From positions 300,001-332,000 of the forward strand of contig AP027131.1 in the NCBI GenBank assembly GCA_027925225.1: 32,000 nucleotides of DNA. The letters are read 5' to 3'. Shown here one piece after another: positions 2,670-25,767 of this stretch (within the stretch, counting starts at the first letter, position 1; each line of letters opens with the position of its first letter). A program made the position numbers and the translations under genes. The DNA comes from Candidatus Saccharimonadota bacterium (GTDB lineage Bacteria > Bacillota_I > Bacilli_A > Mycoplasmatales > Hepatoplasmataceae). The notes below the pieces were generated by a model. The model was not told the DNA's origin and searched no databases. It saw only the letters and a list, made by a program, of their open reading frames with translations.

Positions 2670-2671
2670 AA

Positions 2672-2732
2672 TTATCAACAATAATTTTATTTATTAAAAG
2701 CCAAAAATATAGTAAAATAACTTTGTTGATAA
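2672..2732. promoter_or_regulatory. Perfect 10-bp inverted repeat (ttatcaacaa / ttgttgataa) with a 41-nt spacer in the ORF1-efp intergenic region
   Basis: Arms at 2672-2681 and 2723-2732 are exact reverse complements. No T-run follows, so this is not a canonical terminator. It could be an operator or a leader structure. Confidence 0.2.
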
Positions 2733-2753
2733 AAAACAAAATAAGTAATTAAA

Positions 2754-3329: not shown

Positions 3330-3331
3330 TT

Positions 3332-5483: not shown

Positions 5484-6581
5484 GTTTTTATTTTTATCTT
5501 TTATTCTTTCTAACTTATCATTATCTTCTTCAGAAATTAAATCATATATTGTTCCGCTTATTGTATTTAATCTATTTGTTCTTCCGATTCTATGTTTATA
5601 AAATATAAGATCTGAAGGATAACTAAAATTTATAATGTGTGTTACAATAGGAAAATCTAATCCTCTTGCAATTAAATCTGTTGTAATTAAAAATACAATT
5701 TTGTCTTGATGAATTAATTTTATAATTTTATTTTTTTCTTTTGTATTTAATTGATTATTAAAAAAATATAAGTTTTCCACTTTTTTTTCTTTTAAATATC
5801 TATAAATTAAATTTACTTCATTATTTGTTTTTGCAAATATCAAACAAAAATAGGGATTTAAATTATCAGAAGTTATAAGTTTAAATAATTTTTCTAGTTT
5901 TTCTGATTCATCTACCCTTATTAAATTTATTTTTATTTTTTCCTTATCTAAGTCAACTATTTTAATGTTTTTTGTATTTATTATTTGTAATTTATTTTTA
6001 ATAAAATTTTGTAAAGGAATAGGAAAGGTAGCAGAAAATAAACCTCAAGTTTTATTATCTTTTTTTATAACTTTTTCTTTAAAAATTAAAATTTCTTCTA
6101 AAAAACCAAAATTATAAATCATGTCAATTTCATCAATAATTAAATATTTTAAATTATCAAAATTTATTTTTTCTCTTTCAATTATTTTAAGTAATTTACT
6201 AGGAGTTGTAATTATTATATTTGGATCTTTTTTAAGAAAATAAATATCTTCATTTGTTGAAAGATTATTTATTAAATTAAAAAAAGTAAAATTTGGGAAA
6301 TTTTTCTTTATTTCAGATAAAACACTACTAATTTGAATTGCAAGTTCTCTAGAGGGCACTCAAATTATTGTATTTATTTTATCTTCAGATTTTAGATTAT
6401 TTAAAATCGGAAGAAGAAATGCTAATGTTTTTCCAGATCCAGTAGGAGCTTCTACCGTGACGCTTTTATTTTTTGAAAGTAATGGAATTACATCTTTTTG
6501 AACTTTTGAAAAATTTTTAATATTTTTGTAGATTAAATATTCTTTTAATTCTTTATTTAAATTAGATTGTTCTATAAACAT
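5457..6581 (-). CDS. DEAD-box-type RNA helicase (DEID variant), 374 aa
   Basis: Track fragments 6360-6581, 6045-6359 and 5457-5843 are in one frame, and I translated the 5844-6044 gap and found it open. Motifs: Q-motif F..VQ, AxTGSGKT (APTGSGKT), PSRELA, TPSKL, DEID, SAT, and RGLD / HRIGRT in the C-domain. Confidence 0.85.
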
Positions 6582-7329
6582 GATCTTCCTTATTTTTAAT
6601 TATTATCAATTCTTTAAAATAATCATTGCTTTTAAAGTAATTTTTTATCATAGAAACAAATATATCTTCTGTTTGATGTCCTATTTCGATTACCTTAACA
6701 TTATTATCATTTGCATAAATTCAATGATGATATTTTAATTCGCCTATTACAAAAATAGAGTCTCTATACTTATAATCATATATTAAATCACCCATTGCAC
6801 CTGAAGCAATTATTAATTTTTTTGTAGGAAGAAGATTATTAGGAATATTTGTTCTTATTTTATTTTTTATATCAAAAGTATTTTTTATATATTTAATAAA
6901 ATCAATTAATGTTTTTTCTTTTCTCAAATTTGCTTTTACTGCTTGATTTAAATCTATTTGATTTATATTTTCAAGTTCCAATGCAAGCGCTTGAGAATAT
7001 GAAATAGAAATTGGATTAAAATCTGCATTTGTATGAATAATATAAACATTAATATTAAGTTTTTTTAATAAATCTACTTTTGATTTTAAAATTAAATCTT
7101 TTTTTATTAATTCTTCTTTTTCTCCATAAAAAAGAGGATGATGAGCAATTATTAAATCTACTTTTTTATTGATTGCTTCTTCAATTACTTTTAATGTTAT
7201 ATCTAAAGTAACATATACTGTTGTTATTTCGTCTTTTCCTTTTAACTGCATTCCAATATAATCTTCTAAATATGCTGATTCAATTGGATATTCTTCATTT
7301 AAAAAGTTAATAATTTTTTCTAACTTCAT
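6562..7329 (-). CDS. NIF3 (YqfO/YbgI) family protein, 255 aa
   Basis: Track ORF 6721-7329 ends at a TGA. Read as Trp, the ORF continues 53 codons to TAA 6562-6564 and overlaps the helicase start by 20 nt. Motifs HHPLFY and HTNAD are typical of NIF3. The position next to trmK/rpoD matches the Firmicute gene order. Confidence 0.85.
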
Positions 7330-7387
7330 AATAATTATTTTAATATTTATTAATTTAAATGTTGTTTTATTTTTTATTTTTTTTGCT

Positions 7388-8209
7388 TTAATTATTTCTA
7401 AAATAATTAAATAGTTCTTCTTTTAAGCCATAAAAATCATATATTAAATCATTTAATGGGATATTAATTATATTTTTTGCTCTTGTATTTAAAATTTTAA
7501 TATTACTAATTTTTTGTTGATTAAATTCACTTTCACATAGAATTGTATAAAATAATAACTGATAAATTCAATTGATATCTATTTTTGATTTTAAACTTGT
7601 TTTTATTTCTATTAAACTATCATCTATTATTAAATCAGCTGTTCCTAATATTAAGTTAGTTCCAATTGATTGCTTAAATTTTTTATCAAAAATAACATGT
7701 TTGCTTGATTCTAATAAATTCTCTATTAATTTGTTTTCTTTAACATTATTTTTTATTTTAGAAAAATCATTTAGAAAATTATTATTATATTTTGGATTTT
7801 TGATTCCTTCTAAAAAATTTCCATTAATTCATTTTTCCTTAAAGAAAATATCTATTATTGATCCCATTCTTTGAAACTCTTGGTGATTTGGATTTTCTAC
7901 AACTATTTTAAAGTTTTCAAAATTTATTTTATTTAAATGATTATCAAAAATTTTTGCTATTTCTCTATTTTTTATTATTTTTGTTATTTCTTTTTTATTA
8001 CTTTTAGATTCTTTTTTTTCTGCTTTGCTTTTGTTATTTTTTTTTATAAAATTAGATTTTATTAAAAATAAATAAATTAAAAATAAAATAACTGCTGTTA
8101 CTATGATTATTGAAACAAACAATGGAAGCAAAGATAATATATAGCAAAAAAATAATAATATTAAAATTATTAAAAATCATCGATTTGATTTATTTTTTTT
8201 ATTATTCAT
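7388..8209 (-). CDS. Membrane-anchored PD-(D/E)xK (RecB/Cas4-like) nuclease-fold protein, 273 aa
   Basis: ATG 8209 begins MNNKKNKSNRW, followed by a hydrophobic helix (FLIILILLFFCYILSLLPLFVSIIIVTAVILFLIYLFLI). Track ORF 7829-8131 continues through TGA to TAA 7388-7390, with frame verified. The C-terminal half has GTADLIIDDSLIEIKTS (D...ExK) followed by YQLLFY (QxxxY). Confidence 0.55.
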
Positions 8210-8686: not shown

Positions 8687-9157
8687 TTATATTTTTTTAA
8701 AAAGAAAAGTAATATATTTTTTGTTTTTTTCAATTATTTTTTTTTCATCTATCATTTTGTAATTTAGTTTTATAATTTCTTCTTTTAATAAATTAATTCC
8801 TACAGTTGGTTGAAGAATTAATTTTTGATTTATCAAAGGATATTGATTTAAAATATCTAAAATTTTTCTAGCGCCAAGTCCTGAAATTATTATTGTATTG
8901 TATTTAGATAAATCAATGTTCTTAAATCCATCAGAGATAAAAAGCTCTATTTTTTCTTTTAAGTTTTCATTTAAATTATTTCTTAATTTTTCTATTGCTT
9001 TTTTACTAATATCGGAACCATCTGCTTTAAGACAAAGATTATTTTCTATTAAAAAAATTGGCACTTTCAAATGATCAGTACCAATATCAATTACTTTATC
9101 TTCTTTTTCAATAAAAGAAACAATTGTTTGTAATCTTAATTTTAATTTTTTAGTCAT
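8687..9157 (-). CDS. trmK: tRNA (adenine22-N1)-methyltransferase TrmK-like
   Basis: [12 protein letters not shown]..., the SAM motif VIDIGTDH and ISGLGARKI are present. The gene lies immediately downstream of rpoD, with an 8-nt overlap, as in Firmicutes. Confidence 0.75.
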   Translation of the reverse strand: MTKKLKLRLQTIVSFIEKEDKVIDIGTDHLKVPIFLIENNLCLKADGSDISKKAIEKLRNNLNENLKEKIELFISDGFKNIDLSKYNTIIISGLGARKILDILNQYPLINQKLILQPTVGINLLKEEIIKLNYKMIDEKKIIEKNKKYITFLFKKI

Positions 9158-10475
9158 TTTTTAAATGTTCTAAATCTTTTCTTACATTCTCTTTGTCTTT
9201 AAGTTTTTTCATCGCTTTAGATTCAATTTGTCTAATTCTTTCTCTAGTTACATTAAATCTTTGTCCAATTTCTTCTAGAGAATATCTTTGTTTAATTTCA
9301 TTTGAACCTTCTTCAAGCCCATTTCTTAATCTTATAATATCTACTTCTCTTTTATTTAAATATTTTGGTAAAATTTCATTTATTTTAGAAATAATTTCTT
9401 TGTTGGTTGCATATTTATCGGGAGATATTGTTTGTTTATCTTCTACAAAATCATAAAGAAATGATTCGTTATCAGAACTTATTGTTTTATCAAGTGAGGA
9501 AGGATCGATATTTATAAGTCTTATTTGATTTATTTTACTTTCAGTAATATCTCCTCCCATTTCTTTTGCAATTTCAGCATCGGTTGGTCTTCTTCCGAGT
9601 TCTTGCATTAATTCTCTTGTTATTTTTGAAAGTTTATTAATAGTTTCAACCATATGAACAGGAATACGAACAGTACGAGCTTGATCTGCTATTGCTCTTG
9701 TTATCGCTTGTCTAATTCATCAAGTTGCATAAGTTGATATTTTATATCCTTTTTTATAATCAAATTTATTAATTGCTCTTATAAGTCCATTATTTCCTTC
9801 AGAAATTAAATCTGAAAAAGGGAGTCCTCTACCTTTATATTTTTTTGCTATATTTATTACAAGTCTTAAATTATGATTAATAAGAATTTCTTTTGCAATT
9901 CTAGCTCTATCTTTTTGTGCTCAAGTTGAATCTAACTGAATTCCTGCTTCGATTTGCTTTGCAAGCTCTATTTCTTTTTCTGCAGTAAGAAGAACACCAT
10001 ATTTTCCAACTCATTGCATATATCACTTAATATGATCATCGGTATCTATTAATTCATTATCAATAACAGTATCATCAATATCTTGATAATACTCAAGGTC
10101 ATTTTTTACTTCGCTCTCAGCATTTGCTGTAATTTCTTCACTTGATTTTTCTAAATTTTCTTCTTCTGTTGAATTTTTGTCTTCTTCAAATGTATAAGAT
10201 GTATTTGTTTCTTCTTCAATTTTAACATCATTAAGATCAACCATTTTTTGTTCTTGTTTTTGGTCTTCTTGAATAATTCTTTCAGCAATAAGAAGATCGA
10301 AGAAATTTTCAGTTTCATCATCATTTGTCATTATAAGATTATGATTATCTAGAAATTTAAAAACTTCTTCCTCAGTAAAATATTCTTTTTTGCTCTTTTT
10401 TAATTCACCTTTTAAAATCTTAATTACAGTCTCATATTCATTTAAATATATTTTTTTCTTATCATTTTTTGCCAT
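9150..10475 (-). CDS. rpoD: Primary RNA polymerase sigma factor (sigma-70/SigA), 441 aa
   Basis: Fragments 10023-10475 and 9150-9653 are in frame (1326 nt). The intervening part encodes [69 protein letters not shown], with WW encoded by TGA TGA. Region 4 is [24 protein letters not shown]. Confidence 0.95.
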
Positions 10476-10480: not shown

Positions 10481-12247
10481 TTATTTATTCACCTTACTTG
10501 TTAATCATTTCAAATCATCATAATTAAAATCATCTTCATTACGAATTTGCTCTCTTAATTTTAGATTGTTATATTCTTTGACTAAAAAATTTATTTTATC
10601 TTTCCTATTGTTTAACTCTTCTTTCATATATTCATCATTTTTATTTGCATTTTTATTGATTTTAACATCTATAATTTCCTCATAAAGCAATAATTCTTTT
10701 TCAGTAAAATTTTCTTTTAGTCTATTAAAATCCAAATTTTCATTATTAAATTTTAGGATATCAATAATTTTATTATATAACCTTGTTATTTTTTTTGTAA
10801 AGAAGATATTATTTTCTTTTAGTAGATCTTTTTTTTCTAAGATTAAAGCAAAGACAAAAATCTCTTGCTCCATTATTCTATATGATATTTGCTCGATTTT
10901 GAAATAATTATTGTTTTTTATATTTACATTTTTATTTGATTTAACATTTTTGTGATTTATAATATTTTCTTTATTTTCATCTACAAGTATTTTCACATAA
11001 TCAAATATTGTCTGTTGTTTAATAAAATTAAGATATTTTTCTCTATTAATCCCATCTTTTTCTAATTTAATAATTTTAAATAAATTTAAAATATCTTCCT
11101 TTTTTGTATTTTTTTTCGAAAGTGTTTTATTAATAAGAAATTCAATAAAATCTATTGGATTTTCTATTTCTTTTTTTATATTTTCTTTATTTTCTAAATT
11201 TAAAAATTCATCAAAATCTTTCCCTTTTTTTATTTGAATTATTTTTACAATAAAACCTTCATTTATTAATTGTTTTCCTACTTTTTCTGTTGTGTTTATC
11301 CCGGGTTCATCAACATCAAAACAGAGATTAATTTCTTTTGCTAAACTTTTTAAATATTCAAGATGATATTTAGAAAAATTAGTTCCCATTGTTGCTATTA
11401 CATTTTCATATTCTAATTTATCAAATGCAATAGCATCCATAAATCCTTCTACAATAATAGCTTTTCTTTTTAATTTAATTTTGTTTTCAGCATTATTTAC
11501 ATTGTAAAGTGTTTTTTGTTTATTAAAAACTTTTGTTTCTTCTGAATTTAAATATTTTGAATATGTATTTTCCTTTCCTATTATTCTTCCTGAAAAGGCT
11601 ATTATTTCATTGTTTATGTTAAAAATGGGAAAAATAATTCTGTCTTTAAAAAAATCATATACTTTTGTTTCTGATGTTCTTACTAATTTAGATTTAATAA
11701 TTTCCTCTTCTTTAAAACCTTTTTTAAGTAAAAAATTAAAAAGAGAATTATTTCCTTCTGTAAAACCAATTTTAAATTTTGTAATTATTTTTTCATTAAT
11801 TTTTCTTTTGTTTAAATATTCTTTTATTTCATTCTTATTTTTTTCATTTAACTTGTTTTCTAAATTAAATTTAAAAAAATTGCTTGCTTCTAAATTTATT
11901 TTTTTTAATAATTCTTTTTCGGGATCAATAAAAACTTTTCTTTCATTTATGTATATTTTTCAATCGATTCCTGATAATGTTGATATTTTTTTAATTGAAT
12001 CTATAAAACTTAAATTTTCATAATTTTGTACAAATTTTATAGTTCCTCCACCTGCATTACATGAAAAACATTTAAAAATTTTTTTATTAGGAGAAACAAT
12101 AAGTGATGGATTTGAATCACTATGAAATGGACAAAGTCCAACATAATTGTTTCCTTTTTTTTCTAAATGAATATAGCTTGAAATTATATTTTCAATCTTA
12201 ACTTTGTTATCGATTAAGTCTATTAATTCACTTAAATTATTTTGCAT
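10481..12247 (-). CDS. dnaG: DNA primase, 588 aa
   Basis: Zn-finger CPFHSDSNPSLIVSPNKKIFKCFSC and TOPRIM EGFMDAIA are present. I translated 11441-11959 and found it open, with TGA only. The TGA at 10505 is read through to TAA 10481-10483. Confidence 0.9.
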
Positions 12248-13847
12248 TTTGCTTAATGTATTTTCTTAAATCTCCAAATTTTATTCTTTCCTGCTTTTTA
12301 TTGTCTCAATGTCTAATTGTAAAGGTTTTATCATCTTTATATTGTTTATCTATCGTAATAACAAAAGGTGTACCAATTGCATCTTGTCTAAAATATCTTT
12401 TCCCAATGCTTCCACTTGTTTGAAAAATTATTGCACCAAAATCTCTTTTTGCTATCTTATTAAATATTGCTTTTGCATCTTTTTCTTCATTTTTTGTAAG
12501 TGGACATATTGCAATTTTATATGGAGCAAGAGAAAAAGGAAAATAAATTTTGTTTTTATCTTTATTATAATTCTCTATTAAAATTGCAAAAAGTAAACGT
12601 TCAACCCCCATAGATGTTTCAATAATATTTGGAATTATTCTTTTATTTTCTTCGGTACAATGAAAATTTGTTTTTGAAAAATGTTCATGATTTTTTAAAT
12701 CAAAATCGCCTCGATCTGCAATTCCTAAAATTTCTCCAAAACCAAAAGGGAAATTATAATTTATATCAACCGTTTTTTTTGAATAATGTGCAAGATCAGA
12801 TTTTTTTACATTTTCATATTTAAGATTTTCTTCATTTAATTTAAGTTCTTTTGTTAAAAAAAGCTTTACTTTTTTTAGTGTTTTATTGAATTCTTTTGTA
12901 TTTGTTTTTGGTAAAATAAATGATTCCAGCTCTAATTGCTCAAACTCTCTTGTTTTAAAGATAAAATTCCCAGGAGTTACTTCATTTCTAAAAGATTTAC
13001 CAATTTGGCCAATTGAAAAAGGAAGTTTTAAATGTAAAGTGTCTTTTAAGTTTTTAAAATTTATAAATATTCCTTGTGCTGTCTCTGGTCTTAAATAAAG
13101 TTCTTTATTTCTTTCTGTTTTTGAATTAATTATTTTAAACATTAAGTTAAATATTTTTATTTCACTTCATCTAGTTTCAGATTTATATTTTATTTTTTCC
13201 ATAGCTTCAGACTCAATTTGAAATATTTCTTCTGCGCTTATATTAAATATTTGGCTAATTTCTTCTGAAGAATATTTTTTACCAATTTTATTAGAATTTT
13301 CTTCAATTCCGTTTATAAGTCTTATAATAGATTCTTCTCTTTTATTTAAATATTTTGGTAAAAATTCATTTATTTTAGAAATAATTTTTTTATTTTTATC
13401 ATTTTCTTTATTTGAAGTGTTTTTATTTTTTTCTAAAAAATCATAAATAAATGATTCTGGTAATTTTATTTCTTTTTTTATTAGTTCTTCTATTTCTTTT
13501 AAAGAGAGATCGCTTATATTTTTTTTTAGATATTCTTTTAATAATTTTTCAACATTATATCTAACATTATCATTTAAGCGTTCAATCATATAATCATTAA
13601 ATTTATTTAAATGTCCAGAAGCCTCTCATACTTTATTATTCAATATAATAGATGAATCAAATAAAAATGATTTTTCATTATTGATTACAAAATAATTTTT
13701 TCAAAGAGATTTTAAATTATCTTTAAGCAATGTTCCAATTGGTCCATAGTCGAAAGAATTAGCAAGTCCACCATAAATTTCTGAACTTGGATAAATAAAT
13801 CCATTTTCTTTTAAATGAGAAATTAATAATTGTATTTCTTTTTGCAT
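12237..13847 (-). CDS. glyQS: Glycyl-tRNA synthetase (class II, alpha2 type), 536 aa, with a sigma-derived insert
   Basis: The N-terminus was translated from 13847: MQKEIQLLISHLKENGFIYPSSEIYGGLANSFDYGPIG...VWEASGHLNKFNDYMIE. The core is FNLMFK...YLRPETAQGIFINFKN...GQIGKSFRNEVTPGNFIFKTREFEQLE...GSIGKRYFRQDAIGTPF. Track ORFs 13167-13589 and 12306-13142 are in the same frame. The TGA at 12306 is read through to TAA 12237-12239, overlapping the dnaG start by 11 nt. Confidence 0.9.
13194..13459 (-). repeat. ~265-bp segment homologous to rpoD 9205-9468 (sigma regions 3.2-4.2), embedded in frame inside glyS
   Basis: Direct nucleotide alignment shows long identical runs, for example tcttttatttaaatattttggtaaaa and ttcatttattttagaaataattt. 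The peptide is [22 protein letters not shown]...EEISQIFNISAEEIFQIESEAMEKIK, against Rpo[23 protein letters not shown]...[26 protein letters not shown]. Confidence 0.85.
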
Positions 13848-13897: not shown

Positions 13898-16312
13898 TTA
13901 ATTTAATTTATAATTATTTATCCTAAAATTTAAAAATTTTTTTCTTTCATTATTTAAAACATTGTCATAAATTAAATCTATTTTTTTATTTTTTACAAGC
14001 TCATCAAATTCTTCTTGTAATAATGAAATATTTATTATATCTCCATTTTCATTAATAGCTATTTTGCCTTTATCTCATAGAGAGTGAACATTGCAATCTA
14101 ATAATAAGTAATTATTATTAGAAAAAAAATAATTTAAATTTTCATCTAAATATTTTTCATCAGTGTTCATTAAAATTTTTAAAAATTCTTTATTTTCAAT
14201 AATATGAGCTCTTTCAAAATTAGAAAAACTATTAACAAAATCTTTTGTATATTTTTTATTTTTTCTATCATTCTCTATTATTTTTGATCATATATATCTT
14301 AAATCAGTTTTATTAATTTTTTCTTTTTCTGTTTTTATTTTTTTAATAATTTTTTCTTTTTCATTAAAAATGAATTTATCAGGTACTATTAATAAATCTA
14401 AAAATTTGTTATTTTTAAAAATTTCATAATTTTGTGATGCAAATGCATTTTTTATTTCTCTTCATTCTTTCTCTTCTTTTTTATTGATTTTATATTTTTT
14501 TTTAATTTTCATTTTATTTTCTTTTAATAAACATAAAATATTTTCCTCTTTTATGTCATTTATTAAATTTGTATTAAAAATATTATTATTATTTTTATTT
14601 TTTGAATTTGAAATTAATGAAAAAAATTTAAATTCATAATTATTATTTATTCCATCTTGTTCATAAATTTTTTGTAATTCCTTAATTTCAATGCTATTCA
14701 AAATTAATCTTATTGGATCACTGTTTGGATTTGATAATCCGCCAGAAGAATGTGATCCAGTTATAAATGCATCAACATCTTTTATTGTCAATTTAAAATC
14801 AATAATATTTTTATTTAACTCCTCTATATTTCCCTTAAATTTAACTTCTTCTTTTTTCATATTTTTATTATTTGTTTTATCAAAGTTTTTATTTCTATAT
14901 TTTAATAATTTTAAATATTTTGGTTTTTTTAAAAAAAAATGTTCACCATATCTATTAGAAGAAGAACCTATTATTTGTTTTTCATCATTTAAAAGCATAG
15001 TATTAAAAACCAAACTGTGATCACTTTTTTTAAATATCATTATTCCTTTACCTGAATAAAAATATTTTGATTTTTCTTTGCTTTTTAAATTAACAATAAT
15101 TTTAAAATATTCTTCCTTTTTCATTTTATTTTCCCTTTTATTTTTGAAAGCACATCTAAAAATTTCTTCTAACACTGGTACAACAATTGAATTTCCGGCT
15201 TGTTTTCTTAAAAAATTTTCTGAAATTAAATTTTCATTGTTTATTTTATCAAAATCTTGTTTTTTAAATCCCATTATTTTTCATAATTCAGAAGCACTTA
15301 AAATTCTTATTACATTTAATTTTTTATCAAAAATTTTTATTCTATTTAATGCGCCAGTTGCAGTTATTGTTGGAGATATAGATTTGCTGGCATTAAAAAC
15401 CATATTCTCAGATTGAAAATTTGAATAATTTTTTAAAATTATTTTTTGTATTCCGTTAAAATGATTTTTAAAAGAATTTTCATCTATTTTTTCATTTATT
15501 TTAATTTCTTTTTTATAATTATTAGTATCTTTTTTATCAAAAAAATTGCTAATTCTTAATTTTGTTAAATTAATTTCTTTTGGAAAAATAAATTTATTTT
15601 GTTCAAATTCAGAAAACATAAAAGCTCTTTCTCTATTTTGAGGTATATTAAAATATTTGGCATTTAATGTAAACTTATGATTAACATATCCTAATTTTTC
15701 TAAAAATAATTCTCATTTTTTAAAATTTTTTTTATTTTTTTCAGAGAATATTGCTTTTACATTTTCCATCAATAAAAATTTAGGTAATTTATTTAATTTA
15801 TTTAATTCATCTAAAATTCTTTTAACTTCTCATAATAGAGAAGAACTACTCCCATAAACTAATCCTTTTTGCAATCCTTGTAAAGATAAATCTTGACAAG
15901 GAAAAGAATAAGTCATTAAATCATGTTTGGGAATATTTTCTCCTTTTAAATCTTTTATACTTCCAATATTATTTGTTATATTTAATGATTTTTCTAATAG
16001 TCATAAAAATTTTATTGATAATGATCTTAAATTGGTATATTTGTTTTTTCCATCTTTTGATAAATTATAATTTTCAAGTTTTTTTAATATTTCTTTTTTT
16101 AATATTTCCTTTTCTGTATTTGAAGCTGAATTTAAAATTTTGTCAATTTTTTTTCTTTCATTTTTAATTATTATATTTTCATGAACAAACGCATAAGAAA
16201 TAACAGAATAAATATCTCAATCACAACATAAAACAACTTCAAATTTTAATCCTATATTTTTAAATGCTTTAGCTTGTGCTCCAATACCAGAGAATAATTC
16301 AACTATTTTCAT
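13898..16312 (-). CDS. C5-cytosine DNA methyltransferase fused in one ORF to a C-terminal HNH-type nuclease domain (804 aa)
   Basis: I translated the whole ORF 16312 to 13898 and found only TGA inside. MTase motifs: I ELFSGIGA, IV SFPCQDLS, VI ENV, VIII QNRER, X QAGNSIVVPV. There is no stop after motif X. An unassigned region of about 210 aa follows, then ERAHIIENKEF...NNNYLLLDCNVHSLWDKGKIAINENG, which fits the AHI...N..L....H..fD.G.i pattern of HNH_2-type restriction nucleases. Confidence 0.8.
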
Positions 16313-17151: not shown

Positions 17152-17571
17152 ATGAAATATGTTATTTTGATTGCAAATAGTGAAAAATATGATCATTACA
17201 AATGATTAAGAAAAGAAAAAAAGATAATATGATCTTTTTCAAAATATTTTCATATTCAAAATGATGATATAGTATTGTTATATTCTACTAAAAACAAAGA
17301 AATAAAATTTTTGTTAAATTCTGAATTAATTTTAAAAAATTCAAATAAAAATGAAATTTTAGAAAAAATGGGAGAAAAAGAATTATCAAAATATAAAAAT
17401 AAAAATTTTGAAAATAAAACTTCTTTATTTAATATGAAATTAATTAAAGAATTAGATTTACCTATAAAATTGAATGAAATAAGAAATAAAAAAATACCAG
17501 AGGTTCTATTCTATATTGAAGAAGAAAGAGATTCAGATTTATTTAAAAAAATTACAGATTTAATTTTATAA
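17152..17571 (+). CDS. Hypothetical 139-aa protein, possibly PUA/EVE-like
   Basis: ATG 17152 is in frame with track ORF 17275-17571 through two TGA codons. The N-terminus MKYVILIANSEKYDHYKWLRKEKKIIWSFSKYFHIQNDDIVLLYST loosely fits the EVE pattern (Y.l....p.kY..W...W......i..gD.vl.Y.s). The assignment is weak. Confidence 0.4.
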
Positions 17572-17725
17572 AAATTAAAAAGATTTTTAGACAAAAAAAT
17601 ATATTAAAAATATAAATATAATTCCTTTTAGAGATATAAAAAATAGGAAAATAAATAAATAAAAATTTATACATCATATTTAATAGTTGCTCTAACACCA
17701 TTAATTGTTAAAATTAATATATCTA

Positions 17726-19532
17726 ATGAAAAAAGAAAATATCAGAAACTTTTCAATTATTGCTCATATTGATCATGGTAAATCTACGCTTGCAGATCGT
17801 ATATTAGAATATACTGGTTCTATTTCAAAAAGAGAAATGAAGGCACAAATCTTAGATACTATGGATCTTGAGAGAGAACGTGGTATTACTATAAAATTAA
17901 ATGCTGTTCAAATTTCTTATAAATATAATAATGAAGAATATATTTTAAATTTAATTGATACTCCTGGACATGTTGATTTTACATATGAAGTATCCCGCTC
18001 ATTAGCTGCAAGCGATGGAGTATTACTCTTAGTAGATGCAACACAAGGCGTTCAACCACAAACAATAGCAAATATGTATCTTGCGCTTGAAAATAATCTT
18101 GTTATCTTACCTGTAATTAATAAAATTGATTCTGAATTAGCAGATATTAAAAAAGCAGAAAAAGAAATAAAAGAAATTTTAGGTCTTGAAATAAATGACA
18201 TAGTCTATATTTCTGCTAAAACTGGGAAAAATATTGACAAAGTATTAAAGCTTATAATTGAAAAAATTCCTGCTCCTCAAGATGCAGATGACAAAAAACC
18301 TCTTAAAGCACTTGTATTTGATTCTTATTTTGATTCTTTTAGAGGAATTATTGTATTTATAAGATTATTGCAAGGAAGAATAAAAAAAGGAGATAAATTA
18401 AAATTTTTACAAAATAAGCATCAATTTGAAGTTATTTCAGTAGGTGTAAATACACCTTTTGAAACAGAAAAAGATCATCTTGAAGCAGGGGAAACGGGCT
18501 GAATAGTAACTAATGAAAAAGATATTCATTCTTTTCATGTGGGAGATACTTTAACTTATGAAAATGAAAATAGTATAACTCCTATACAAGGATATAAATC
18601 ATCAAAACCTATGGTTTTTTCTGGTTTTTATCCAATAGATACAAATAAATATTTACTATTAGAAGAAGCATTGGGAAAAATTTCTCTTTCAGATTCTTCA
18701 CTTACTTATGAAAAAGAAAGTTCTAAAGCATTAGGATTTGGCTTCAGAATTGGCTTTTTAGGATTATTGCATCTTGAAATTATTCAAGAAAGAATTGAAA
18801 GAGAATTTAAAATAGATATTATTTCTACTGCACCTTCTGTTATTTATAATGTTTATTTAAAAGATAAAAAAGAACCATTAGTAATTAGAAATCCTTCAGA
18901 TTTTCCTGATAAAGTAAATATAAATTATGTAAAAGAACCTTATGTTAAACTATCTCTTTTTTCCCCACAAGTTTATGTGGGGAAATTAATGGAATATATT
19001 CATAGAAAAAGAGGTAATTATATTGATTTAGAGATATTTTCTGAAAAAATGAATGCTTTAATTTATGAAATTCCACTTGCTGAAATTGTATTTGGTTTTT
19101 TTGATTCTATTAAATCTATATCAAAAGGTTATGCTTCTTTTGATTATCAAGAAATAGGATATAAAAAATCAAATTTAGCAAAACTTTGAAGTTTTAATAG
19201 CAGGAGAAAAAATAGATGCTCTTTCTTTAATTGTAGAAAAAGATAATGCTTATTATATTGGAAGAGATCTTACTCAAAAATTAAAAGAAACACTTGTAAG
19301 ACAGAATTTTGAGGTTGCAATTCAAGCAAGCTTAAATGGAAAAATTATTGCAAGAGAAACATTAAAAGCATATAGAAAAGATGTAACTGGTTATCTTTAT
19401 GGTGGAGATGTTTCAAGAAAGAAAAAGCTTTTAGAAAAACAGAAAAAAGGGAAAAATAAAATGAAGCAAATTGGTAAAATATCTATTCCTCAAGAAGCTT
19501 TTATTTCTATTTTAAAAAATAATAATAAATAA
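17726..19532 (+). pseudogene. lepA: lepA (EF4) copy 1, conserved motifs intact but frameshifted by one extra T at 19185-19187
   Basis: G-domain motifs [22 protein letters not shown] and NKID are present. The length is 1807 nt, one more than copy 2. Here the sequence is aaactttgaag, against aaacttgaag in copy 2. The original frame ends at TAA 19244-19246, and the last ~114 codons ([12 protein letters not shown]...[14 protein letters not shown]) lie in the +1 frame. Confidence 0.7.
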
Positions 19533-19566
19533 AAAAAATACACATTTAAAAATGTGTATTTTTTAA
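19533..19566. terminator. Bidirectional rho-independent terminator between convergent lepA-1 and the fibre-gene relic
   Basis: A perfect 11-bp palindromic stem (aatacacattt / aaatgtgtatt, 19537-19560) is flanked by an A-run on the left and a T-run on the right. Confidence 0.75.
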
Positions 19567-19584
19567 AATAGTATTATTTTATAT

Positions 19585-20343
19585 TTATGCTGTTCTTTTG
19601 AAAACTCTCATTCCTGTTCCAACTCCTAAATCATAAGCTTTATTTTTATCTTTGCTACCAGTTAATGAAGTTCATGCTGTTTGACAATTATCAGCACTTT
19701 CACTAGGAACTGTATTTCCTATTATTTTTGAATTTCCTCCTTGATCATATGTATTAAATTTATTTATACTATTACCAAATCCTGTTACTACATCTGCAGC
19801 AAAATTTGTTATTCTTGCTGATCATTGGTGATTATGAGAAATTATATTTCCATTATTTGAACTGCATCCAATTATAGCTTGCCCTTCTGATAATATTCCT
19901 AAACTTTCTCAAAATCCATATCTTGGTGGCATTAGAGAAATAATAATTGATCCAATTGGTAATTTTAAATTTTCCATTTGATTTTTTAATTCTAAAATTT
20001 CATTTTGATTATTAATAATTTGATTTAATGATTGATTTATACCTTCTGTTGGATTCATAGTACTATCATCTGCCAATTCTGAAGATAAAGAAATTCCTTC
20101 TTCAAATTCTGGTCATTGATTAATTGTTTCTCCATTTAAAGTAAGTTGAGGATAGTTATATATACCATTTTCTATTTCAATTAAATCTGCACTATTTTGA
20201 TTAACAATTTTATTTGTTTCATTTAAATTTGCTTGATCTGCTTTTAATGAAATATCTCCTGTATTTTTATCAATTTGTGTTTTTCAAGGATTTATTCCAA
20301 AAGTTGGATTTGAAGTACTATTATTTGCTAATTTTAAAGTCTT
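19585..20343 (-). pseudogene. 5'-truncated fibre-family paralog (A'), 252 codons: one GINPW repeat, coiled coil and C-terminal domain
   Basis: The frame is open from 20343 to TAA 19585-19587 and is preceded by an in-frame TAA at 20344-20346. There is no plausible start or N-terminal part. It abuts glyS relic 3. The sequence is collinear with the 3' third of gene 25768-27813. Confidence 0.7.
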
Positions 20344-20763: not shown

Positions 20764-23247
20764 TTACTTATTTAATAATTCATAATTTTGTTTAATATTT
20801 TCATAAAATGTTTTCATTTCTTTACTTCAAATTTTTAATTTTTCTTTATTTTTAGGTATTGGAATTAAAAAATCATAAAAATTTATAGAAATAGTAGGTA
20901 TTGTACCTTGAATAAAAATTGCACTTCTAACTTGTTCTTTAAATATCTTTGAAGTTGCAAATATTTTGCTTAATGAATAATTATCTAAATTTAAAACATT
21001 TCTTTTATTTACTTTTATTATATATAAATGAGATTGTATAACTGATTTAATGTCATTTTTATCTAAAATAGCAAATTGACCAACTCTACTTTTTCCATCT
21101 TTTACAAAAATAATATCTCCTTCTTCTAACTTTTGTTTATTTTTAAATTTTGATTCAAAATATTCTTTTGTAATATATCATTGTTTATTTAAATTTATTT
21201 TATAATCTTGAATATCAGAAGTTCTTATAAAAGGAATATAATCTTTTTCATTTAATTCTTCCTCAATATCATCCAAACTAAAATAACCACTACTTTCTGG
21301 CCCATTGCCAACAGGTATTAATTTTTTTTTGTTAGAATATAACACATCAATTTCAATTAATTCTTTAATTGTATAAAAATCATATATATTCTTAAATTCT
21401 TTTTTCATTTTATTTTGATAACTTCTATATTTTATATAAAAGTTTGTGTATAAAGAAAGATTATTTTCATTATATATGTCTAACATTTTAATTTTAAAAA
21501 TTTGTGAATTTTCTTTTTTATTTTTAAAGTCTTGGTATAAATTTTCAAAATCACTTTTTATTATTTTCTCTTTTTTTTCATTTTGTAATATATTTTGCAT
21601 CAAATCTTTTTCATATTTAATTTTCCCATTTTTATCATGACCCACCTCAAATACATTAAAAAGAAAAACATTTTTATTAGAAAACTTAGAAATTATTTCT
21701 TCTTTTGTTAAATTATTTTCAAATTTTCTTAAAATAAGAACTGATGTCTTAATACCTGTATGAGGTTTAAATGTTTCGGTTGGTAAGTTTATTATTTTTT
21801 CTACATAACATTTAGAAAGAATAAATTGTCTAAGTGAAAGTAATGTTGGATTTCCAAATATTCCTTCAGGTAAAATTATTGCTAATTGTCCACCTACTTT
21901 TAAAAAATTAATACATTGTTCAATAAAAAGGTATTCTGGATTAACTGCTTTTTCAATTTTGCCATTTTTCTTTGCTACTTCATAATTTTTCAAAATTTCA
22001 TAATCTTCTACTTGAATTTTTTTTCCAAAAGGAGGATTTGTAATAATTAAATCAAAATCTTTTTTAATAGTTTTTTTACTAACTTTTTCACTTGATAAAG
22101 AATCAACATCAAAAATATTAGTAACACCATCACCCATGATAGACATATATGCTTTTGATATTTTTGCAACTGTTTTATTTAAATCAAAACCATAAATATT
22201 TTTACTAGCTATTTTTTGTTTTAAATTTTCCTTTTCTTCTCTTGAAATTTTTTTTAATTCAATAATCTCTCAAATATTTTTTAAATACTCAACAATAAAA
22301 CCACCAGTACCACAAGCAGGATCTAATATTTTTTTGTTTTCATCAATATTTAAAAAATTAAGAATAAATTTTACTACATTTCTAGGGGTAAAAAATTGAC
22401 CATGATCTCCTTTAAGGGTTTTAGAAATAATAGTTTCAAATGCATCTGTAATAACATCACTGGAAGAAGTCATAAAACTAACTTTTTGAAGATTTTCAAT
22501 TATATAACTAATTATTTCTTCGCTAAATTCAATTGTTTCATCTTCTTCAAAATTATCAGCATAACTTTTTTTGACATTATTAAATATTTTAATTAATTGA
22601 TTCTTATTGGGTTCTGAATCATTTATATTACTTTCTTTTCAAACAAATTCTAAATTATCTTCATCTTCCTTATATCTTTCATCATAAATTTTGCAAAAAA
22701 GCACTCTAATTAAGTTATCTACAATCATTCCATCACTTTCCGCGGTGCTTGCTTTTATATAAGAATGAATTTCTTGAAAAGTTTTTTTTAAATTTTCAAA
22801 AGACTTTAAATCTTTTTTTTTAAAATTATCTATAACATTATTAAAATTAGGAATATTATTTATACTAATATAATTCAAAGAATCAGTTTTTTTATCTACA
22901 ACTTTTTTTAAAAATATTTTTTTCACCCCATTAAATAAAACACCATAATGAGCATCGCAAAGTCCCAAATATTTTTTTAATTGATTTATACCATCTTTTC
23001 TGTTATTTCTTTTACATTCAACAATAATATGTAAATTATTATTTTTATCAAAAACAGCAATATCAATCAGATATTTTTCTAAACTTCCAGGAGATTTTGG
23101 AATTCTATATTGTGGATGAGTAGTAATATTATTCTTGGGATATCCGTAAATTTTAAAAAGTTCTTCTGAAAAGGGTTGAATTGATTCTACTTCTTCGGGA
23201 GTGGCATTAATTTTCTTTGTTGTTATATAATCTGTTATTTGTTTCAT
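20764..23247 (-). CDS. Single-chain type IIG-like restriction-modification enzyme: N-terminal PD-(D/E)xK nuclease, gamma-class N6-adenine MTase and one HsdS-like target-recognition domain (827 aa)
   Basis: Fragments 22639-23247, 22270-22473 and 21178-22146 plus the tail to TAA 20764-20766 are in one frame, and I translated the gaps. Nuclease motif: LIDIAVFD...HIIVECK. MTase motifs: GQFFTPRNVV, DPACGTGGF (I), NPPFG (IV). The C-terminus (LEEGDIIFVKDGKSRVGQFAIL...IPIPKNKEKLKI) resembles an HsdS half-subunit. Confidence 0.8.
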
Positions 23248-23805: not shown

Positions 23806-23910
23806 TCTCAAACATGAATTCACTAATTATTAAAAAAAGCAAATAAAAAATTTAAACATTATGTTTTAATAAATATTTAATAATTAATATTATTAAAATT
23901 AATATATCTA

Positions 23911-25716
23911 ATGAAAAAAGAAAATATAAGAAATTTTTCAATTATTGCTCATATAGACCATGGGAAATCTACACTTTCAGATCGAATATTAGAATATACT
24001 GGTTCTATTTCAAAAAAAGAAATGAAGTCGCAAATCTTAGATAATATGGATCTTGAAAGAGAACTAGGAATTACTATAAAATTAAATGCTGTGCAAATTT
24101 CTTATAAATATAATAATGAAGAATATATTTTAAATTTAATTGATACTTCTGGACATTTTGATTTTACATATGAAGTATTTCGTTCATTGGCTGCAAGTGA
24201 TGGAGTATTGCTTTTAATTGATGCAACACAAGGTGTTCAACCAAAAACAATAGCAAATATGTATCTTGCACTTGAAAATAATCTTGTTATCTTACCTGTA
24301 ATTAATAAAATTGATTCTGAATTAGCAAATATTAAAAAATCAGAAAAAGAAATAAAAGAAATTTTAGGTCTTGAAATAAATGACATAGTCTATATTTCTG
24401 CTAAAACTGGGAAAAATATTGACCAAGTATTAAAGCTTATAATTGAAAAAATTCCTGCTCCTCAAGATGCAGATGACAAAAAACCTCTTAAAGCACTTGT
24501 ATTTGATTCTTATTTTGATTCTTTTAGAGGAATTATTGTATTTATAAGATTATTGCAAGGAAGAATAAAAAAAGGAGATAAATTAAAATTTTTACAAAAT
24601 AAGCATCAATTTGAAGTTATTTCAGTAGGTGTAAATACACCTTTTGAAAAAGAAAAAGATCATCTTGAAGCAGGAGAAACAGGCTGAATAGTAACTAATG
24701 AAAAAGATATTCATTCTTTTCATGTGGGAGATACCTTAACTTATGAAAATGAAAATAATATAACTCCTATACAAGGATATAAATCATCAAAACCTATGGT
24801 TTTTTCTGGTTTTTATCCAATAGATACAAATAAATATTTACTATTAGAAGAAGCATTGGGAAAAATTTCTCTTTCAGATTCTTCACTTACTTATGAAAAA
24901 GAAAGTTCTAAAGCATTAGGATTTGGCTTCAGAATTGGCTTTTTAGGATTATTGCATCTTGAAATTATTCAAGAAAGAATTGAAAGAGAATTTAAAATAG
25001 ATATTATTTCTACTGCTCCTTCTGTTATTTATAATGTTTATTTAAAAGATAAAAAAGAACCATTAATAATTAGAAATCCTTCAGATTTTCCTGATAAAGT
25101 AAATATAAATTATGTAAAAGAACCTTATGTTAAACTATCTCTTTTTTCCCCACAAGTTTATGTAGGGAAATTAATGGAATATATTCATAGAAAAAGAGGC
25201 AATTATATTGATTTAGAGATATTTTCTGAAAAAATGAATGCTTTAATTTATGAAATTCCACTTGCTGAAATTGTATTTGGTTTTTTTGATTCTATTAAAT
25301 CTATATCAAAAGGTTATGCTTCTTTTGATTATCAATAAATAGGATATAAAAAATCAAATTTAGCAAAACTTGAAGTTTTAATAGCAGGAGAAAAAATAGA
25401 TGCTCTTTCTTTAATTGTAGAAAAAGATAATGCTTATTATATTGGAAGAGATCTTACTCAAAAATTAAAAGAAACACTTGTAAGACAGAATTTTGAGGTT
25501 GCAATTCAAGCAAGTTTGAATGGAAAAATTATTGCAAGAGAAACATTAAAAGCATATAGAAAAGATGTAACTGGTTATCTTTATGGTGGAGATGTTTCAA
25601 GAAAGAAAAAACTTTTAGAAAAACAGAAAAAAGGGAAAAAGAAAATGAAGCAAATTGGTAAAATATCTATTCCTCAAGAAGCTTTTATTTCTATTTTAAA
25701 AAATAATAATAAATAA
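23911..25716 (+). pseudogene. lepA: lepA (EF4) copy 2, with an in-frame TAA at 25336-25338 and substitutions at invariant GTPase residues
   Basis: All 1806 nt are in one frame. GAA>TAA relative to copy 1 (FDYQ*IGYKK). Substitutions: RGITI>[13 protein letters not shown]>[12 protein letters not shown]>QPKT. The 3' two-thirds are almost identical to copy 1. Confidence 0.75.
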
Positions 25717-25749
25717 AAAAATACACATTTAAAAATGTGTATTTTTTAA
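25717..25749. terminator. Second copy of the bidirectional terminator (atacacattt aaaa atgtgtat + T-run)
   Basis: The same palindrome as at 19537-19560, located between lepA-2 and the convergent fibre gene. Confidence 0.75.
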
Positions 25750-25767
25750 AATATTATTATTTTATAT

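What the first reader, a model, noticed from the sequence alone, without database searches (positions are those of the whole stretch)
13898..16312. C5-cytosine methyltransferase and HNH nuclease in one uninterrupted 804-codon ORF
All C5-MTase motifs (I, IV, VI, VIII, X) lie in the first ~390 aa. Instead of a stop, the frame continues through ~210 aa of unassigned sequence into an HNH_2-like motif (AHII...NNYLLLDCNVHSLWDKGKIAINENG). Fused R-M enzymes are usually built on N6-adenine MTases, so an m5C MTase covalently linked to an HNH nuclease is unusual. An in-frame ATG at about 15131 (MKKEEYFKII) preceded by AAAGGG could also allow separate expression of the nuclease part, nested within the MTase ORF. 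The middle region may be the nuclease's own DNA-recognition domain.
Basis: partly seen in the sequence, partly recalled or inferred. Interest (0 to 1): 0.65.

Follow-up and report, generated by a model that had tools for sequence, protein, structure and literature searches.

The report
CpG methylase fused to HNH nuclease
In this very AT-rich mycoplasma-like genome, a DNA methylase of the CpG-specific kind long regarded as a stand-alone enzyme is joined in one reading frame to the putative DNA-cutting enzyme that sits next to it as a separate gene in every relative found, which suggests the two work together as a restriction-modification system.

Summary
The 804-codon ORF (13898-16312, minus strand) is uninterrupted only under genetic code 4, because eight in-frame TGA codons fall at conserved Trp positions. 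Residues 1-385 are a complete C5-cytosine methyltransferase. It aligns end to end with the CpG-specific M.MpeI (39.5% identity) and keeps most of M.MpeI's CG-recognition loop residues. Residues 397-804 match, from first to last residue, stand-alone 411-433 aa proteins of the MAG4270 "putative restriction endonuclease" family. This part gives an HNH_2 hit above Pfam's cut-off and keeps the family's invariant His/Asn/His. The "unassigned" middle is that family's own conserved N-terminal domain, which has no detectable structural relative. In 10 of 10 related loci the methylase and nuclease genes are adjacent but separate. Among 1.84 billion representative proteins, only the window's protein is fused. 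The internal ATG (15124-15122) is the ancestral nuclease start and keeps an AAGGGA ribosome-binding-like motif. The most likely reading is a single-chain (Type IIC-like) R-M enzyme created by loss of one stop codon or by a 1-nt indel. An assembly artefact remains possible (about 15%). No enzymatic activity was tested. I rate it a new variant of a known kind, of moderate interest: it links the "orphan" CpG methylases to a nuclease partner.

The parts
13898..16312 (-). Whole fused ORF: 804 codons plus TAA. It is open only under code 4 (8 in-frame TGA = Trp).
15158..16312 (-). C5-cytosine DNA methyltransferase module (residues 1-385) of the M.MpeI/M.SssI (CpG) type. Motif I is at 16274-16294, IV (FPCQDLS) at 15884-15904, VI at 15752-15772, VIII at 15620-15640, IX at 15266-15289 and X at 15158-15199.
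15332..15421 (-). Target-recognition loops 1 and 2 (NFQSENMVF ... TATGALNRIKI). They are equivalent to M.MpeI loops carrying F302/S304/E305 and G322/A323/R326. N324 and S325 are replaced by L and N.
15125..15157 (-). 11-codon junction (RCAFKNKRENK). In all relatives the MTase stop codon falls 4 codons after ..E(A/E/G)IF, followed by a gap of 2-9 nt or an overlap of 11-17 nt. Here the codon at that position is AAA and the frame runs on.
15132..15137 (-). AAGGGA, a Shine-Dalgarno-like motif ending 7 nt upstream of the internal ATG, retained from the ancestral nuclease gene. 5-mer SD-like motifs occur in 3.3% of 17-nt windows.
15122..15124 (-). In-frame ATG (M397), which is homologous to the start codon of the stand-alone MAG4270-family nucleases.
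14420..15124 (-). N-terminal domain of the nuclease module (residues 397-631). It is conserved across the family (invariant KLTIKDVDAFI(S/T)GS..SGGL...DP.R) and gives a confident alpha/beta model (pLDDT about 85). No match was found in PDB or BFVD. A DNA-recognition or partner-binding role is inferred only.
14051..14218 (-). HNH_2 (PF13391) match, residues 699-754. The candidate catalytic residues H703 (ERAHIIEN), N733/N734 and H743 (NNYLLLDCNVHSLWD) are all invariant in the family.
13901..15124 (-). Complete MAG4270-family putative restriction endonuclease module (residues 397-804). It is co-linear with stand-alone 411-433 aa homologues over 87-98% of its length, at 36-40% identity.

Best explanation
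This is a genuine in-frame fusion of the two genes of a mollicute Type II restriction-modification pair. The N-terminal half is a C5-cytosine methyltransferase of the CpG-specific M.MpeI/M.SssI family. The C-terminal half is a complete MAG4270-family HNH (His-Me finger) nuclease with its own about 235-aa N-terminal domain.

The fusion probably arose from the ordinary M-then-R gene pair. One route is loss of the MTase stop codon in an in-frame arrangement like locus L012 (TAA to AAA). The other is a 1-nt indel.

Inferred mechanism:
- The MTase module methylates CpG on the host chromosome.
- The HNH module cleaves incoming DNA that carries unmethylated CpG-containing sites and is blocked by 5mCpG.
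- Because both activities are on one polypeptide (Type IIC-like), the nuclease can never be made without the methylase.
- A free nuclease may also be made from the retained internal start (M397).

Shown here: the ORF, the domain families, co-linearity with stand-alone homologues, gene adjacency in all relatives, uniqueness of the fusion, and conservation of catalytic and CG-recognition residues.

Inferred: CpG specificity, nuclease activity, its sensitivity to methylation, and internal initiation.
For: - The ORF is open under code 4, with TGA at conserved Trp positions.
- DNA_methylase scores 5e-45 and TIGR00675 scores 130.6 bits against a cut-off of 100.65.
- The MTase aligns end to end with M.MpeI (PDB 4dkj/8c56) at E about 2e-56 and 39.5% identity. 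An experimentally CG-specific M. agalactiae enzyme is about 40% identical to M.SssI and M.MpeI (PMC9465063).
- M.MpeI's CG-contact residues F302, S304, E305, G322, A323 and R326 are conserved.
- CpG observed/expected is 0.32 in the window.
- HNH_2 scores above the gathering threshold in 10 of 10 family members.
- The nuclease part matches MAG4270_fam end to end.
- All family-invariant residues, including H703, N733/N734 and H743, are present.
- In 10 of 10 distinct related loci an m5C MTase gene lies next to the nuclease gene. The order is M then R in nine and R then M in Spiroplasma culicicola. Several loci sit in defence islands with GmrSD or Z1 genes.
- The fusion is unique among 28 family hits in 1.84e9 representatives.
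- All 35 homopolymer runs of 6 nt or more inside the ORF keep the frame, while the runs at the junction are 5 nt or shorter. This argues against a local assembly indel.
- L012 shows the in-frame arrangement with an intervening TAA, so one substitution would be enough.
- Type IIC logic, with M active as a monomer and R requiring assembly, is described in PMC12707154.
Against: - There is only one copy of this sequence in all collections searched, so the junction has no independent confirmation.
- Elsewhere in the window one lepA copy carries a +1 T frameshift, which could be an assembly error.
- The nuclease half scores 43-49 bits against NF045952, just below its 53-bit cut-off.
- The HNH region is modelled with low confidence (pLDDT 55-70), and Foldseek did not recover an HNH fold.
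- Two CG-loop residues differ from M.MpeI (N324L, S325N), so a shifted specificity is possible.
- In four relatives the MTase ORF is split at a (GA)n tract while the nuclease ORF is intact. This is hard to reconcile with an independently active CG-directed nuclease.
- No activity of any MAG4270-family protein is reported in the papers I could search.
Confidence: 0.55

Rival explanations
1. Assembly or sequencing artefact. The organism really has two ordinary genes (MTase, then nuclease), as in every relative, and a single-base error in the A-rich junction put them in one frame. For example, one extra A in CAAAAAT would give ...AFKK-TAA, followed by AAGGGA and the ATG.
For: - All 10 related loci have separate genes.
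- The junction is made of short A runs, and one inserted A restores a canonical stop-SD-ATG layout.
- lepA copy 1 in the same window has a +1 T frameshift relative to its 96%-identical duplicate.
- The contig length (662,108 bp) is close to that of an ONT-based, Illumina-polished metagenome-assembled genome of 662,079 bp with only about 15x ONT and 38x Illumina coverage (PMC10928387). Identity with that genome is unproven.
- No second copy of the junction exists in any collection searched.
Against: - 35 longer homopolymers (6-9 nt) within the same ORF are all in frame, and both halves align without frame breaks.
- The junction runs are 5 nt or shorter, where indel errors are rarer.
- A substitution route (TAA to AAA from an L012-like in-frame layout) needs no indel.
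- The lepA frameshift lies in a 2-kb duplicated region, where polishing is expected to be less reliable than in unique sequence.
Confidence: 0.15
2. The fusion is real, but the nuclease is not an autonomous restriction enzyme. It depends on the methyltransferase, either as a physical complex that supplies CpG targeting (as Res depends on Mod in Type III systems) or through strict translational coupling. The family would then behave as one phase-variable unit, and the fusion would simply make that dependence covalent.
For: - Relatives carry (GA)9-35 tracts in the MTase gene. In four of the five loci that hold the whole MTase gene, the MTase ORF is split (OFF) while the nuclease ORF is intact.
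- CpG MTases are reported as phase-variable, and OFF in 9 of 10 M. agalactiae strains (PMC9465063).
- In the M-then-R loci that were read, the nuclease start abuts or overlaps the MTase stop (gap of 2-9 nt, or overlap of 11-17 nt).
- The window's version lacks any (GA)n tract and is fused.
Against: - The nuclease has its own conserved about 235-aa N-terminal domain, which could recognise DNA by itself.
- The gene order is reversed (R then M) in S. culicicola, where coupling from M to R cannot operate.
- (GA)n lengths in short-read assemblies are unreliable, so the ON/OFF calls are soft.
- There is no interaction evidence.
Confidence: 0.17
3. The HNH module is a repair nuclease functionally analogous to Vsr. 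It would nick T:G mismatches produced by deamination of 5-methyl-CpG, which would explain why it travels with an m5C MTase and why a fusion is tolerated.
For: - m5C MTase-Vsr fusions are common among the MTase homologues (for example P0014, and several others carrying PF03852).
- The nuclease ORF persists where the MTase appears OFF, which would be harmless for a repair enzyme.
Against: - There is no sequence or fold similarity to Vsr or to any mismatch nuclease.
- The protein is about 410 aa, against about 150 aa for Vsr.
- Relatives lie in defence islands with GmrSD, Z1 and other HNH proteins.
- CpG remains strongly depleted (O/E 0.13-0.54) in these genomes, so efficient repair is not evident.
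- NCBI curators name the family a putative restriction endonuclease.
Confidence: 0.07
4. The HNH module is a modification-dependent (Type IV-like) nuclease, as in SRA-HNH or McrA-type enzymes. It would be aimed at a methylation pattern different from the one written by its partner MTase.
For: HNH-type domains occur in 5mC-dependent enzymes such as the SRA-HNH proteins (title and abstract of PMC4333417). Type IV GmrSD genes are neighbours in three relatives.
Against: - A 5mC-directed nuclease fused or adjacent to an active m5C MTase would be self-destructive unless the two specificities are disjoint.
- No SRA, EVE, wH or other known modified-base reader domain was detected.
- Strict one-to-one pairing with an MTase in 10 of 10 loci is the signature of classical R-M.
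Confidence: 0.03

Closest known systems
M.MpeI (Mycoplasma penetrans) and M.SssI (Spiroplasma sp. MQ1), the CpG-specific C5-methyltransferases
   Same: The MTase half aligns with M.MpeI from residue 2 to 387 at 39.5% identity and E about 2e-56. All catalytic motifs and most CG-recognition loop residues are conserved. Its best PADLOC model is the 395-position 'orphan methyltransferase' profile. The host genome is CpG-depleted.
   Different: M.SssI is described as not being part of an R-M system (PMC11879396), and the CpG MTase of M. agalactiae is listed as an orphan (PMC9465063). Here the enzyme is covalently joined to a nuclease. Loop residues N324 and S325 differ. The window's gene lacks the (GA)n or poly(G) phase-variation tract found in relatives.
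MAG4270 family putative restriction endonuclease (NCBIfam NF045952), e.g. Spiroplasma culicicola WP_025363276.1
   Same: Residues 404-797 match profile positions 6-365 of 366. The HNH_2 motif is shared, and the gene lies next to an m5C MTase. The nearest stand-alone homologues are 36-40% identical over 87-98% of the query.
   Different: The window's copy scores 43-49 bits, below the 53-bit cut-off. It belongs to a divergent subclade of 411-433 aa proteins, two of which come from isopod-associated mollicutes. It is the only copy fused to its MTase. No member has a published activity among the papers I could search.
Type IIC restriction-modification enzymes (R and M in one polypeptide)
   Same: Nuclease and methyltransferase modules sit in one reading frame. 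The regulatory logic that R cannot exist without M applies (PMC12707154).
   Different: From general knowledge, characterised Type IIC/IIG enzymes such as Eco57I, MmeI and BcgI use an N6-adenine (gamma-class) MTase with an N-terminal PD-(D/E)XK nuclease. Here the order is m5C MTase first and HNH nuclease last, and the nuclease brings its own large extra domain. The window itself encodes a conventional one of the usual type at 20764-23247 (HSDR_N_2 + N6_Mtase).
Database examples of m5C MTase-nuclease fusions: MTase+LlaMI REase (Streptococcus suis, P0111), MTase+Vsr (P0014 and others), MTase+Cas4-like nuclease (P0087)
   Same: An N-terminal DNA_methylase domain is followed by a C-terminal nuclease domain in a single protein.
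   Different: The nuclease folds differ (LlaMI/MvaI-BcnI, Vsr, PD-(D/E)XK rather than HNH_2), and the MTases are not of the CpG family. None of these carries the MAG4270-type domain.

Membership tests
C5-cytosine DNA methyltransferase (Pfam PF00145 / TIGR00675) | Profile score above the curated cut-off | tested here: met
   PF00145 scores 154.7 bits against a cut-off of 22. TIGR00675 scores 130.6 bits against 100.65.
C5-cytosine DNA methyltransferase (Pfam PF00145 / TIGR00675) | Conserved motifs: I (FxGxG), IV (PCQ catalytic Cys), VI (ENV), VIII (QxRxR) and X (GNS) | tested here: met
   FSGIGAQ at 7-13, FPCQDLS at 137-143, LMENVKA at 181-187, QNRERAF at 225-231 and AGNSIVV at 372-378.
CpG-specific M.MpeI/M.SssI subfamily | Full-length co-linear similarity to a structurally characterised CpG MTase | tested here: met
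   Residues 2-387 align with M.MpeI 12-387 at 39.5% identity and E about 2e-56.
CpG-specific M.MpeI/M.SssI subfamily | CG-recognition loop residues (F302, S304, E305; G322, A323, N324, S325, R326 of M.MpeI) | tested here: inconclusive
   Six of the eight are conserved. N324 is L and S325 is N, and the same replacements occur in most relatives.
CpG-specific M.MpeI/M.SssI subfamily | Methylation of CG and only CG | not testable with these tools
   This needs bisulfite or nanopore methylome data, or expression of the protein. The only indirect support is CpG O/E of 0.32.
HNH_2 (Pfam PF13391), His-Me finger nucleases | Profile score above the gathering threshold | tested here: met
   27 bits against a cut-off of 21, residues 699-754. 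All 10 members of alignment A2 hit the profile.
HNH_2 (Pfam PF13391), His-Me finger nucleases | Catalytic His and metal-ligand Asn/His present | tested here: met
   H703, N733/N734 and H743 are invariant across the family alignment.
HNH_2 (Pfam PF13391), His-Me finger nucleases | Beta-beta-alpha-metal fold | tested here: inconclusive
   The AF2 model has pLDDT 55-70 in this region. There is no Foldseek match to HNH structures.
MAG4270 family putative restriction endonuclease (NCBIfam NF045952) | Whole-protein score at or above the curated cut-off (53 bits) | tested here: not met
   43.0 bits within the fusion and 49.1 bits for residues 397-804 alone. Both are end-to-end matches. Sister proteins P0121 (85 bits), P0133 (66 bits) and P0140 (61 bits) pass.
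MAG4270 family putative restriction endonuclease (NCBIfam NF045952) | Co-linear match over the whole profile | tested here: met
   Profile positions 5/6-365 of 366 are covered.
MAG4270 family putative restriction endonuclease (NCBIfam NF045952) | Genomic pairing with an m5C MTase | tested here: met
   This holds in 10 of 10 related loci and in the window itself.
Type IIC restriction-modification enzyme | R and M modules in one polypeptide | tested here: met
   One 804-codon ORF under code 4. The result depends on the junction sequence being correct.
Type IIC restriction-modification enzyme | Both activities demonstrated, with cleavage blocked by the cognate methylation | not testable with these tools
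   This requires biochemistry.

The most novel reading that the evidence does not exclude
The mollicute CpG methyltransferases (M.SssI/M.MpeI family), treated for decades as orphan enzymes, may in fact be the modification half of a widespread phase-variable restriction system. Its HNH nuclease (MAG4270 family) would sense unmethylated CpG through a previously undescribed about 235-aa domain and would depend on the methylase for expression or targeting. The window's natural fusion would then be the 'Rosetta stone' that shows the two proteins act together. The nuclease would be the first restriction enzyme governed by plain CpG methylation.
Probability: 0.3. Interest if true: 0.75.

Novelty: new variant of a known kind. 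Interest (0 to 1): 0.5.

Why it matters
CpG-specific bacterial methylases are workhorse reagents and are described as solitary enzymes. A covalent fusion to a conserved neighbouring nuclease, plus 10 of 10 adjacency in relatives, is gene-fusion evidence that they belong to an R-M system.

If the nuclease proves to cut DNA at unmethylated CpG-containing sites, it would add a new specificity-determining fold. It could also serve as a tool for reading CpG methylation.

It would also change how CpG depletion and phase-variable CpG methylation in mollicutes are interpreted, from host-epigenome manipulation or regulation toward defence.

The fusion itself is a rare m5C-based, HNH-based counterpart to the N6A-based Type IIC enzymes.

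Tried and rejected
- **Independent copies of the junction.** I looked up the 804-aa product exactly. I looked up the 270-aa table-11 ORF that spans the junction. I ran a gapped DNA pattern that allows A-run length variants over JGI metagenome contigs. Nothing was found, so the junction cannot be cross-validated here.
- **More family members.** A JGI metagenome scan found none, and GTDB genomes yielded only two loci.
- **Structure of the nuclease half.** The AF2 model has a mean pLDDT of 73. The best Foldseek E-value was 1.7 against PDB and 0.59 against BFVD. Sequence and profile searches of PDB gave nothing meaningful. The N-terminal domain therefore stays unassigned. A weak TFIIS_M hit (E 0.014, one member only) was dismissed.
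- **PADLOC.** It has no model that hits the nuclease.
- **Promoter and terminator scans.** They are uninformative in 20% G+C DNA: 23 promoter-like sites against 33 expected, and no terminators. I therefore make no claim about an internal promoter.
- **A decaying pseudogene.** I considered and rejected this, because every family-invariant residue and every MTase motif is intact.
- **A phase-variation tract at the junction.** I considered and rejected this. The junction runs are 5 nt or shorter, and the (GA)n tract of relatives is absent.
- **Papers not held.** The original M.SssI and M.MpeI papers (PMC330428, PMC3538198) are not in the library. I could not check what lies next to those two genes.
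Full report
**1. The observation**

The minus strand of 13898-16312 translates as 804 sense codons followed by TAA. This holds only if TGA is read as tryptophan. Under the standard bacterial code the region breaks into short ORFs.

All eight TGA codons fall where homologues have Trp: CCDWD, LLWEV, ELWKIMGF and HSLWD, among others. The window is about 20% G+C. Its neighbours are housekeeping genes such as glyS, dnaG, rpoD and lepA. The source is therefore a mollicute using code 4, and the protein database records a 662,108-bp contig for this protein.

With TAA and TAG expected at about 8% of codons at this composition, an 804-codon open frame is not a chance event (my estimate).

**2. The two halves**

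*Methyltransferase half.*
- Pfam gives DNA_methylase at 5e-45. NCBIfam gives TIGR00675 above its cut-off.
- Motifs I, IV (FPCQDLS), VI, VIII, IX and X are all present within residues 7-385.
- The closest solved structure is M.MpeI, the CpG-specific methyltransferase of Mycoplasma penetrans. The alignment runs end to end at 39.5% identity and E about 2e-56.
- The residues that read the CG dinucleotide in the M.MpeI-DNA complex are described in PMC10899764. Of these, F302, S304, E305, G322, A323 and R326 are conserved. N324 and S325 are replaced by L and N.
- An M. agalactiae enzyme that is about 40% identical to M.SssI and M.MpeI is experimentally CG-specific (PMC9465063).
- CpG is strongly depleted in the window, with O/E of 0.32.
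- I therefore regard CpG specificity as likely but not shown.

*Nuclease half.*
- HNH_2 (PF13391) is found at residues 699-754, above the gathering score.
- The whole of residues 404-797 matches NCBIfam NF045952, the "MAG4270 family putative restriction endonuclease". The match covers positions 6-365 of 366 but scores 43-49 bits, just under the 53-bit cut-off.
- Searching with residues 397-804 returns stand-alone proteins of 411-433 aa. They are 36-40% identical over 87-98% of the query.
- Several of these stand-alone proteins pass the NF045952 cut-off.
- So the "~210 aa of unassigned sequence" is the N-terminal domain of this nuclease family, and M397 (MKKEEYFKII) corresponds to the family's own start codon.
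- Family-invariant residues include H703, N733/N734, H743, W746 and D747 in the HNH motif. They also include a striking KLTIKDVDAFI(S/T)GS..SGGL...DP.R block in the N-terminal domain.
- An AlphaFold model is confident for the N-terminal domain (pLDDT about 85) and poor for the HNH part (55-70).
- Neither Foldseek (PDB and BFVD) nor profile searches of PDB sequences find any relative. The domain's role in DNA recognition or partner binding is inference only.

**3. Relatives and the junction**

I recovered ten distinct related loci:
- Candidatus Tyloplasma litorale and Mycoplasma sp. Bg1, both isopod-associated;
- several mollicute contigs inside large assemblies and Logan assemblies;
- Spiroplasma culicicola;
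- one further genome.

In every locus an m5C methyltransferase gene lies directly beside the nuclease gene. The order is M then R in nine loci and R then M in S. culicicola. One locus (L009) has two MAG4270-type paralogues in tandem.

No locus is fused. In the eight M-then-R loci whose junction I read (L001, L003, L005-L007, L009, L011, L012), the MTase ends four or five residues after ..E(A/E/G)IF. The nuclease start then follows within 2-9 nt or overlaps it by 11-17 nt, usually in another frame.

In L012 the two genes are in the same frame, separated by TAA-GGA-CAA-AAT. In the window, the codon at the position of that stop is AAA, and the frame continues through RCAFKNKRENK into M397.

The fusion therefore differs from the normal layout by a single event. 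That event could be a stop-codon substitution in an L012-like ancestor. It could also be a 1-nt indel: one extra A in CAAAAAT would restore ...AFKK-TAA, then AAGGGA, then ATG.

A profile search of 1.84 billion representative proteins finds only 28 family members. The window's protein is the only one with an added N-terminal module.

**4. Is the fusion real?**

I could not find a second copy of the junction anywhere.

*For an artefact.*
- The junction is A-rich.
- One lepA copy in the window has a +1 T frameshift relative to its 96%-identical duplicate.
- The contig length is close to that of a low-coverage, nanopore-based, Illumina-polished metagenome-assembled genome (662,079 bp; PMC10928387). 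I cannot show it is the same record.

*Against an artefact.*
- The ORF contains 35 homopolymers of 6-9 nt, all of which preserve the frame. The junction runs are 5 nt or shorter.
- A substitution route needs no indel.
- The lepA problem lies in duplicated sequence, where polishing is expected to be weakest.

I put the artefact at about 15%.

**5. How it most likely works**

Conserved pairing in either gene order, and location in defence islands with GmrSD, Z1 and other HNH proteins in three relatives, both point to a restriction-modification pair.

My best explanation (confidence 0.55) is a single-chain, Type IIC-like enzyme.
- The CpG methylase module protects the chromosome.
- The HNH module cuts unmethylated CpG-containing DNA.
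- Fusion guarantees that the nuclease is never produced without the methylase. The general Type IIC logic is in PMC12707154.
- The retained AAGGGA-N7-ATG could still give some free nuclease. A 5-mer SD-like motif occurs in only 3.3% of 17-nt windows, and about half the genes in the window have SD-like motifs.

A notable complication concerns the relatives.
- They carry (GA)9-35 tracts in the MTase gene. This matches the published phase variation of mollicute CpG MTases (PMC9465063).
- In four of the five loci that hold the whole MTase gene, the MTase ORF is split while the nuclease ORF is intact.
- Either the assembled tract lengths are unreliable, or the nuclease depends on the methylase through coupling or a complex. 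That dependence is my second-ranked explanation (0.17).
- The window's gene has lost the tract altogether and is fused, which fits a constitutive, obligatorily coupled version.

A Vsr-like repair role (0.07) and a modification-dependent role (0.03) are less likely, for the reasons listed under the rival explanations.

**6. Comparison with what is known**

The MTase is a member of PF00145/TIGR00675 and of the M.MpeI/M.SssI lineage. Its CG specificity is unproven. PADLOC's best model for it is an "orphan methyltransferase" profile, and PADLOC has no model for the nuclease.

Recent literature states that M.SssI is not part of an R-M system (PMC11879396). It also lists the M. agalactiae CpG MTase (MAG4250/4260, the genes numbered just before MAG4270) as an orphan with no REase (PMC9465063). 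NCBI's family name shows that curators already suspected a restriction role. I found no experimental report on any MAG4270-family protein.

Fusions of m5C MTases to nucleases exist: LlaMI-type REase in Streptococcus suis, Vsr, and a Cas4-like nuclease. Characterised Type IIC enzymes use N6-adenine MTases (general knowledge). The window itself encodes such a conventional HSDR_N_2 + N6_Mtase protein at 20764-23247.

**7. Verdict**

- The feature is a new variant of a known kind. It is the only fused member of a small mollicute R-M family, joining a CpG-type m5C methylase to an HNH nuclease.
- Interest is moderate (0.5).
  - Against: the parts are known families, and the junction rests on one sequence.
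  - For: the fusion plus universal adjacency makes a long-standing assumption directly testable, namely that CpG methylases of mollicutes are orphans.

Noticed in passing
window 17648-19684 and 23832-25867: There are two copies of lepA (EF4) in a roughly 2-kb duplication at 96% nucleotide identity. Copy 1 (17726..) has intact G motifs but a +1 T (AAAACTTTGAAG against AAAACTTGAAG) that frameshifts the last ~110 codons. Copy 2 (23911..) has a GAA to TAA nonsense codon at codon 476, plus missense changes in G motifs (DTPGH to DTSGH). Either both copies are pseudogenes, or copy 1 carries an assembly error.
   Followed up: partly
window 12237-13847 (-), residues ~150-225: The glycyl-tRNA synthetase ORF (536 aa) contains an in-frame segment that is a diverged copy of the C-terminal sigma-70 region 4 of the RpoD encoded at 9150-10475. 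Pfam Sigma70_r4 scores 26.6 bits, above its cut-off, inside GlyRS. This could be a real insertion or an assembly chimera.
   Followed up: partly
window 20764-23247 (-): An 827-aa single-chain Type IIG/IIC-like R-M protein (HSDR_N_2 nuclease-like N-terminus, N6_Mtase with NPPF, and a C-terminal specificity-like region) lies 4.5 kb from the m5C-HNH fusion. The region therefore looks like a small defence island.
   Followed up: partly
L005:3025, L006:2928, L007:1701, L009:235, L014:4001; contig starts of L001 and L012: The CpG-type MTase genes of relatives carry (GA)9-35 tracts in the variable region between motifs I and IV. The ORF is split (OFF) in L006, L007, L009 and L014 and intact (ON) in Ca. 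Tyloplasma litorale, and some short-read contigs break at the tract. The window's gene has no such tract.
   Followed up: yes
L009:1203-2495 and 2437-3738: Two MAG4270-family paralogues (430 aa and 433 aa) sit in tandem downstream of one MTase gene. This may indicate a heteromeric nuclease or a recent duplication.
   Followed up: partly
L003:1584-3764; L013:1-4912; L014:1-3751 and 6235-7872: MAG4270-type loci in relatives are flanked by GmrSD-type Type IV enzymes, other HNH_2 proteins of about 430 aa, and (in S. culicicola) Z1/HATPase_c_3 genes. These are defence-island contexts.
   Followed up: partly
window 25768-31678 (-): Four tandem paralogous ORFs (681, 467, 339 and 338 aa) have similar N-termini (MKII(V/K)KQ...ILKS...). 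Their function is unknown and I did not examine them.
   Followed up: no
window 17152-17571 (+): A 139-aa ORF is transcribed divergently from the fusion gene across an extremely AT-rich (12-15% G+C) spacer. It has no Pfam hit.
   Followed up: partly
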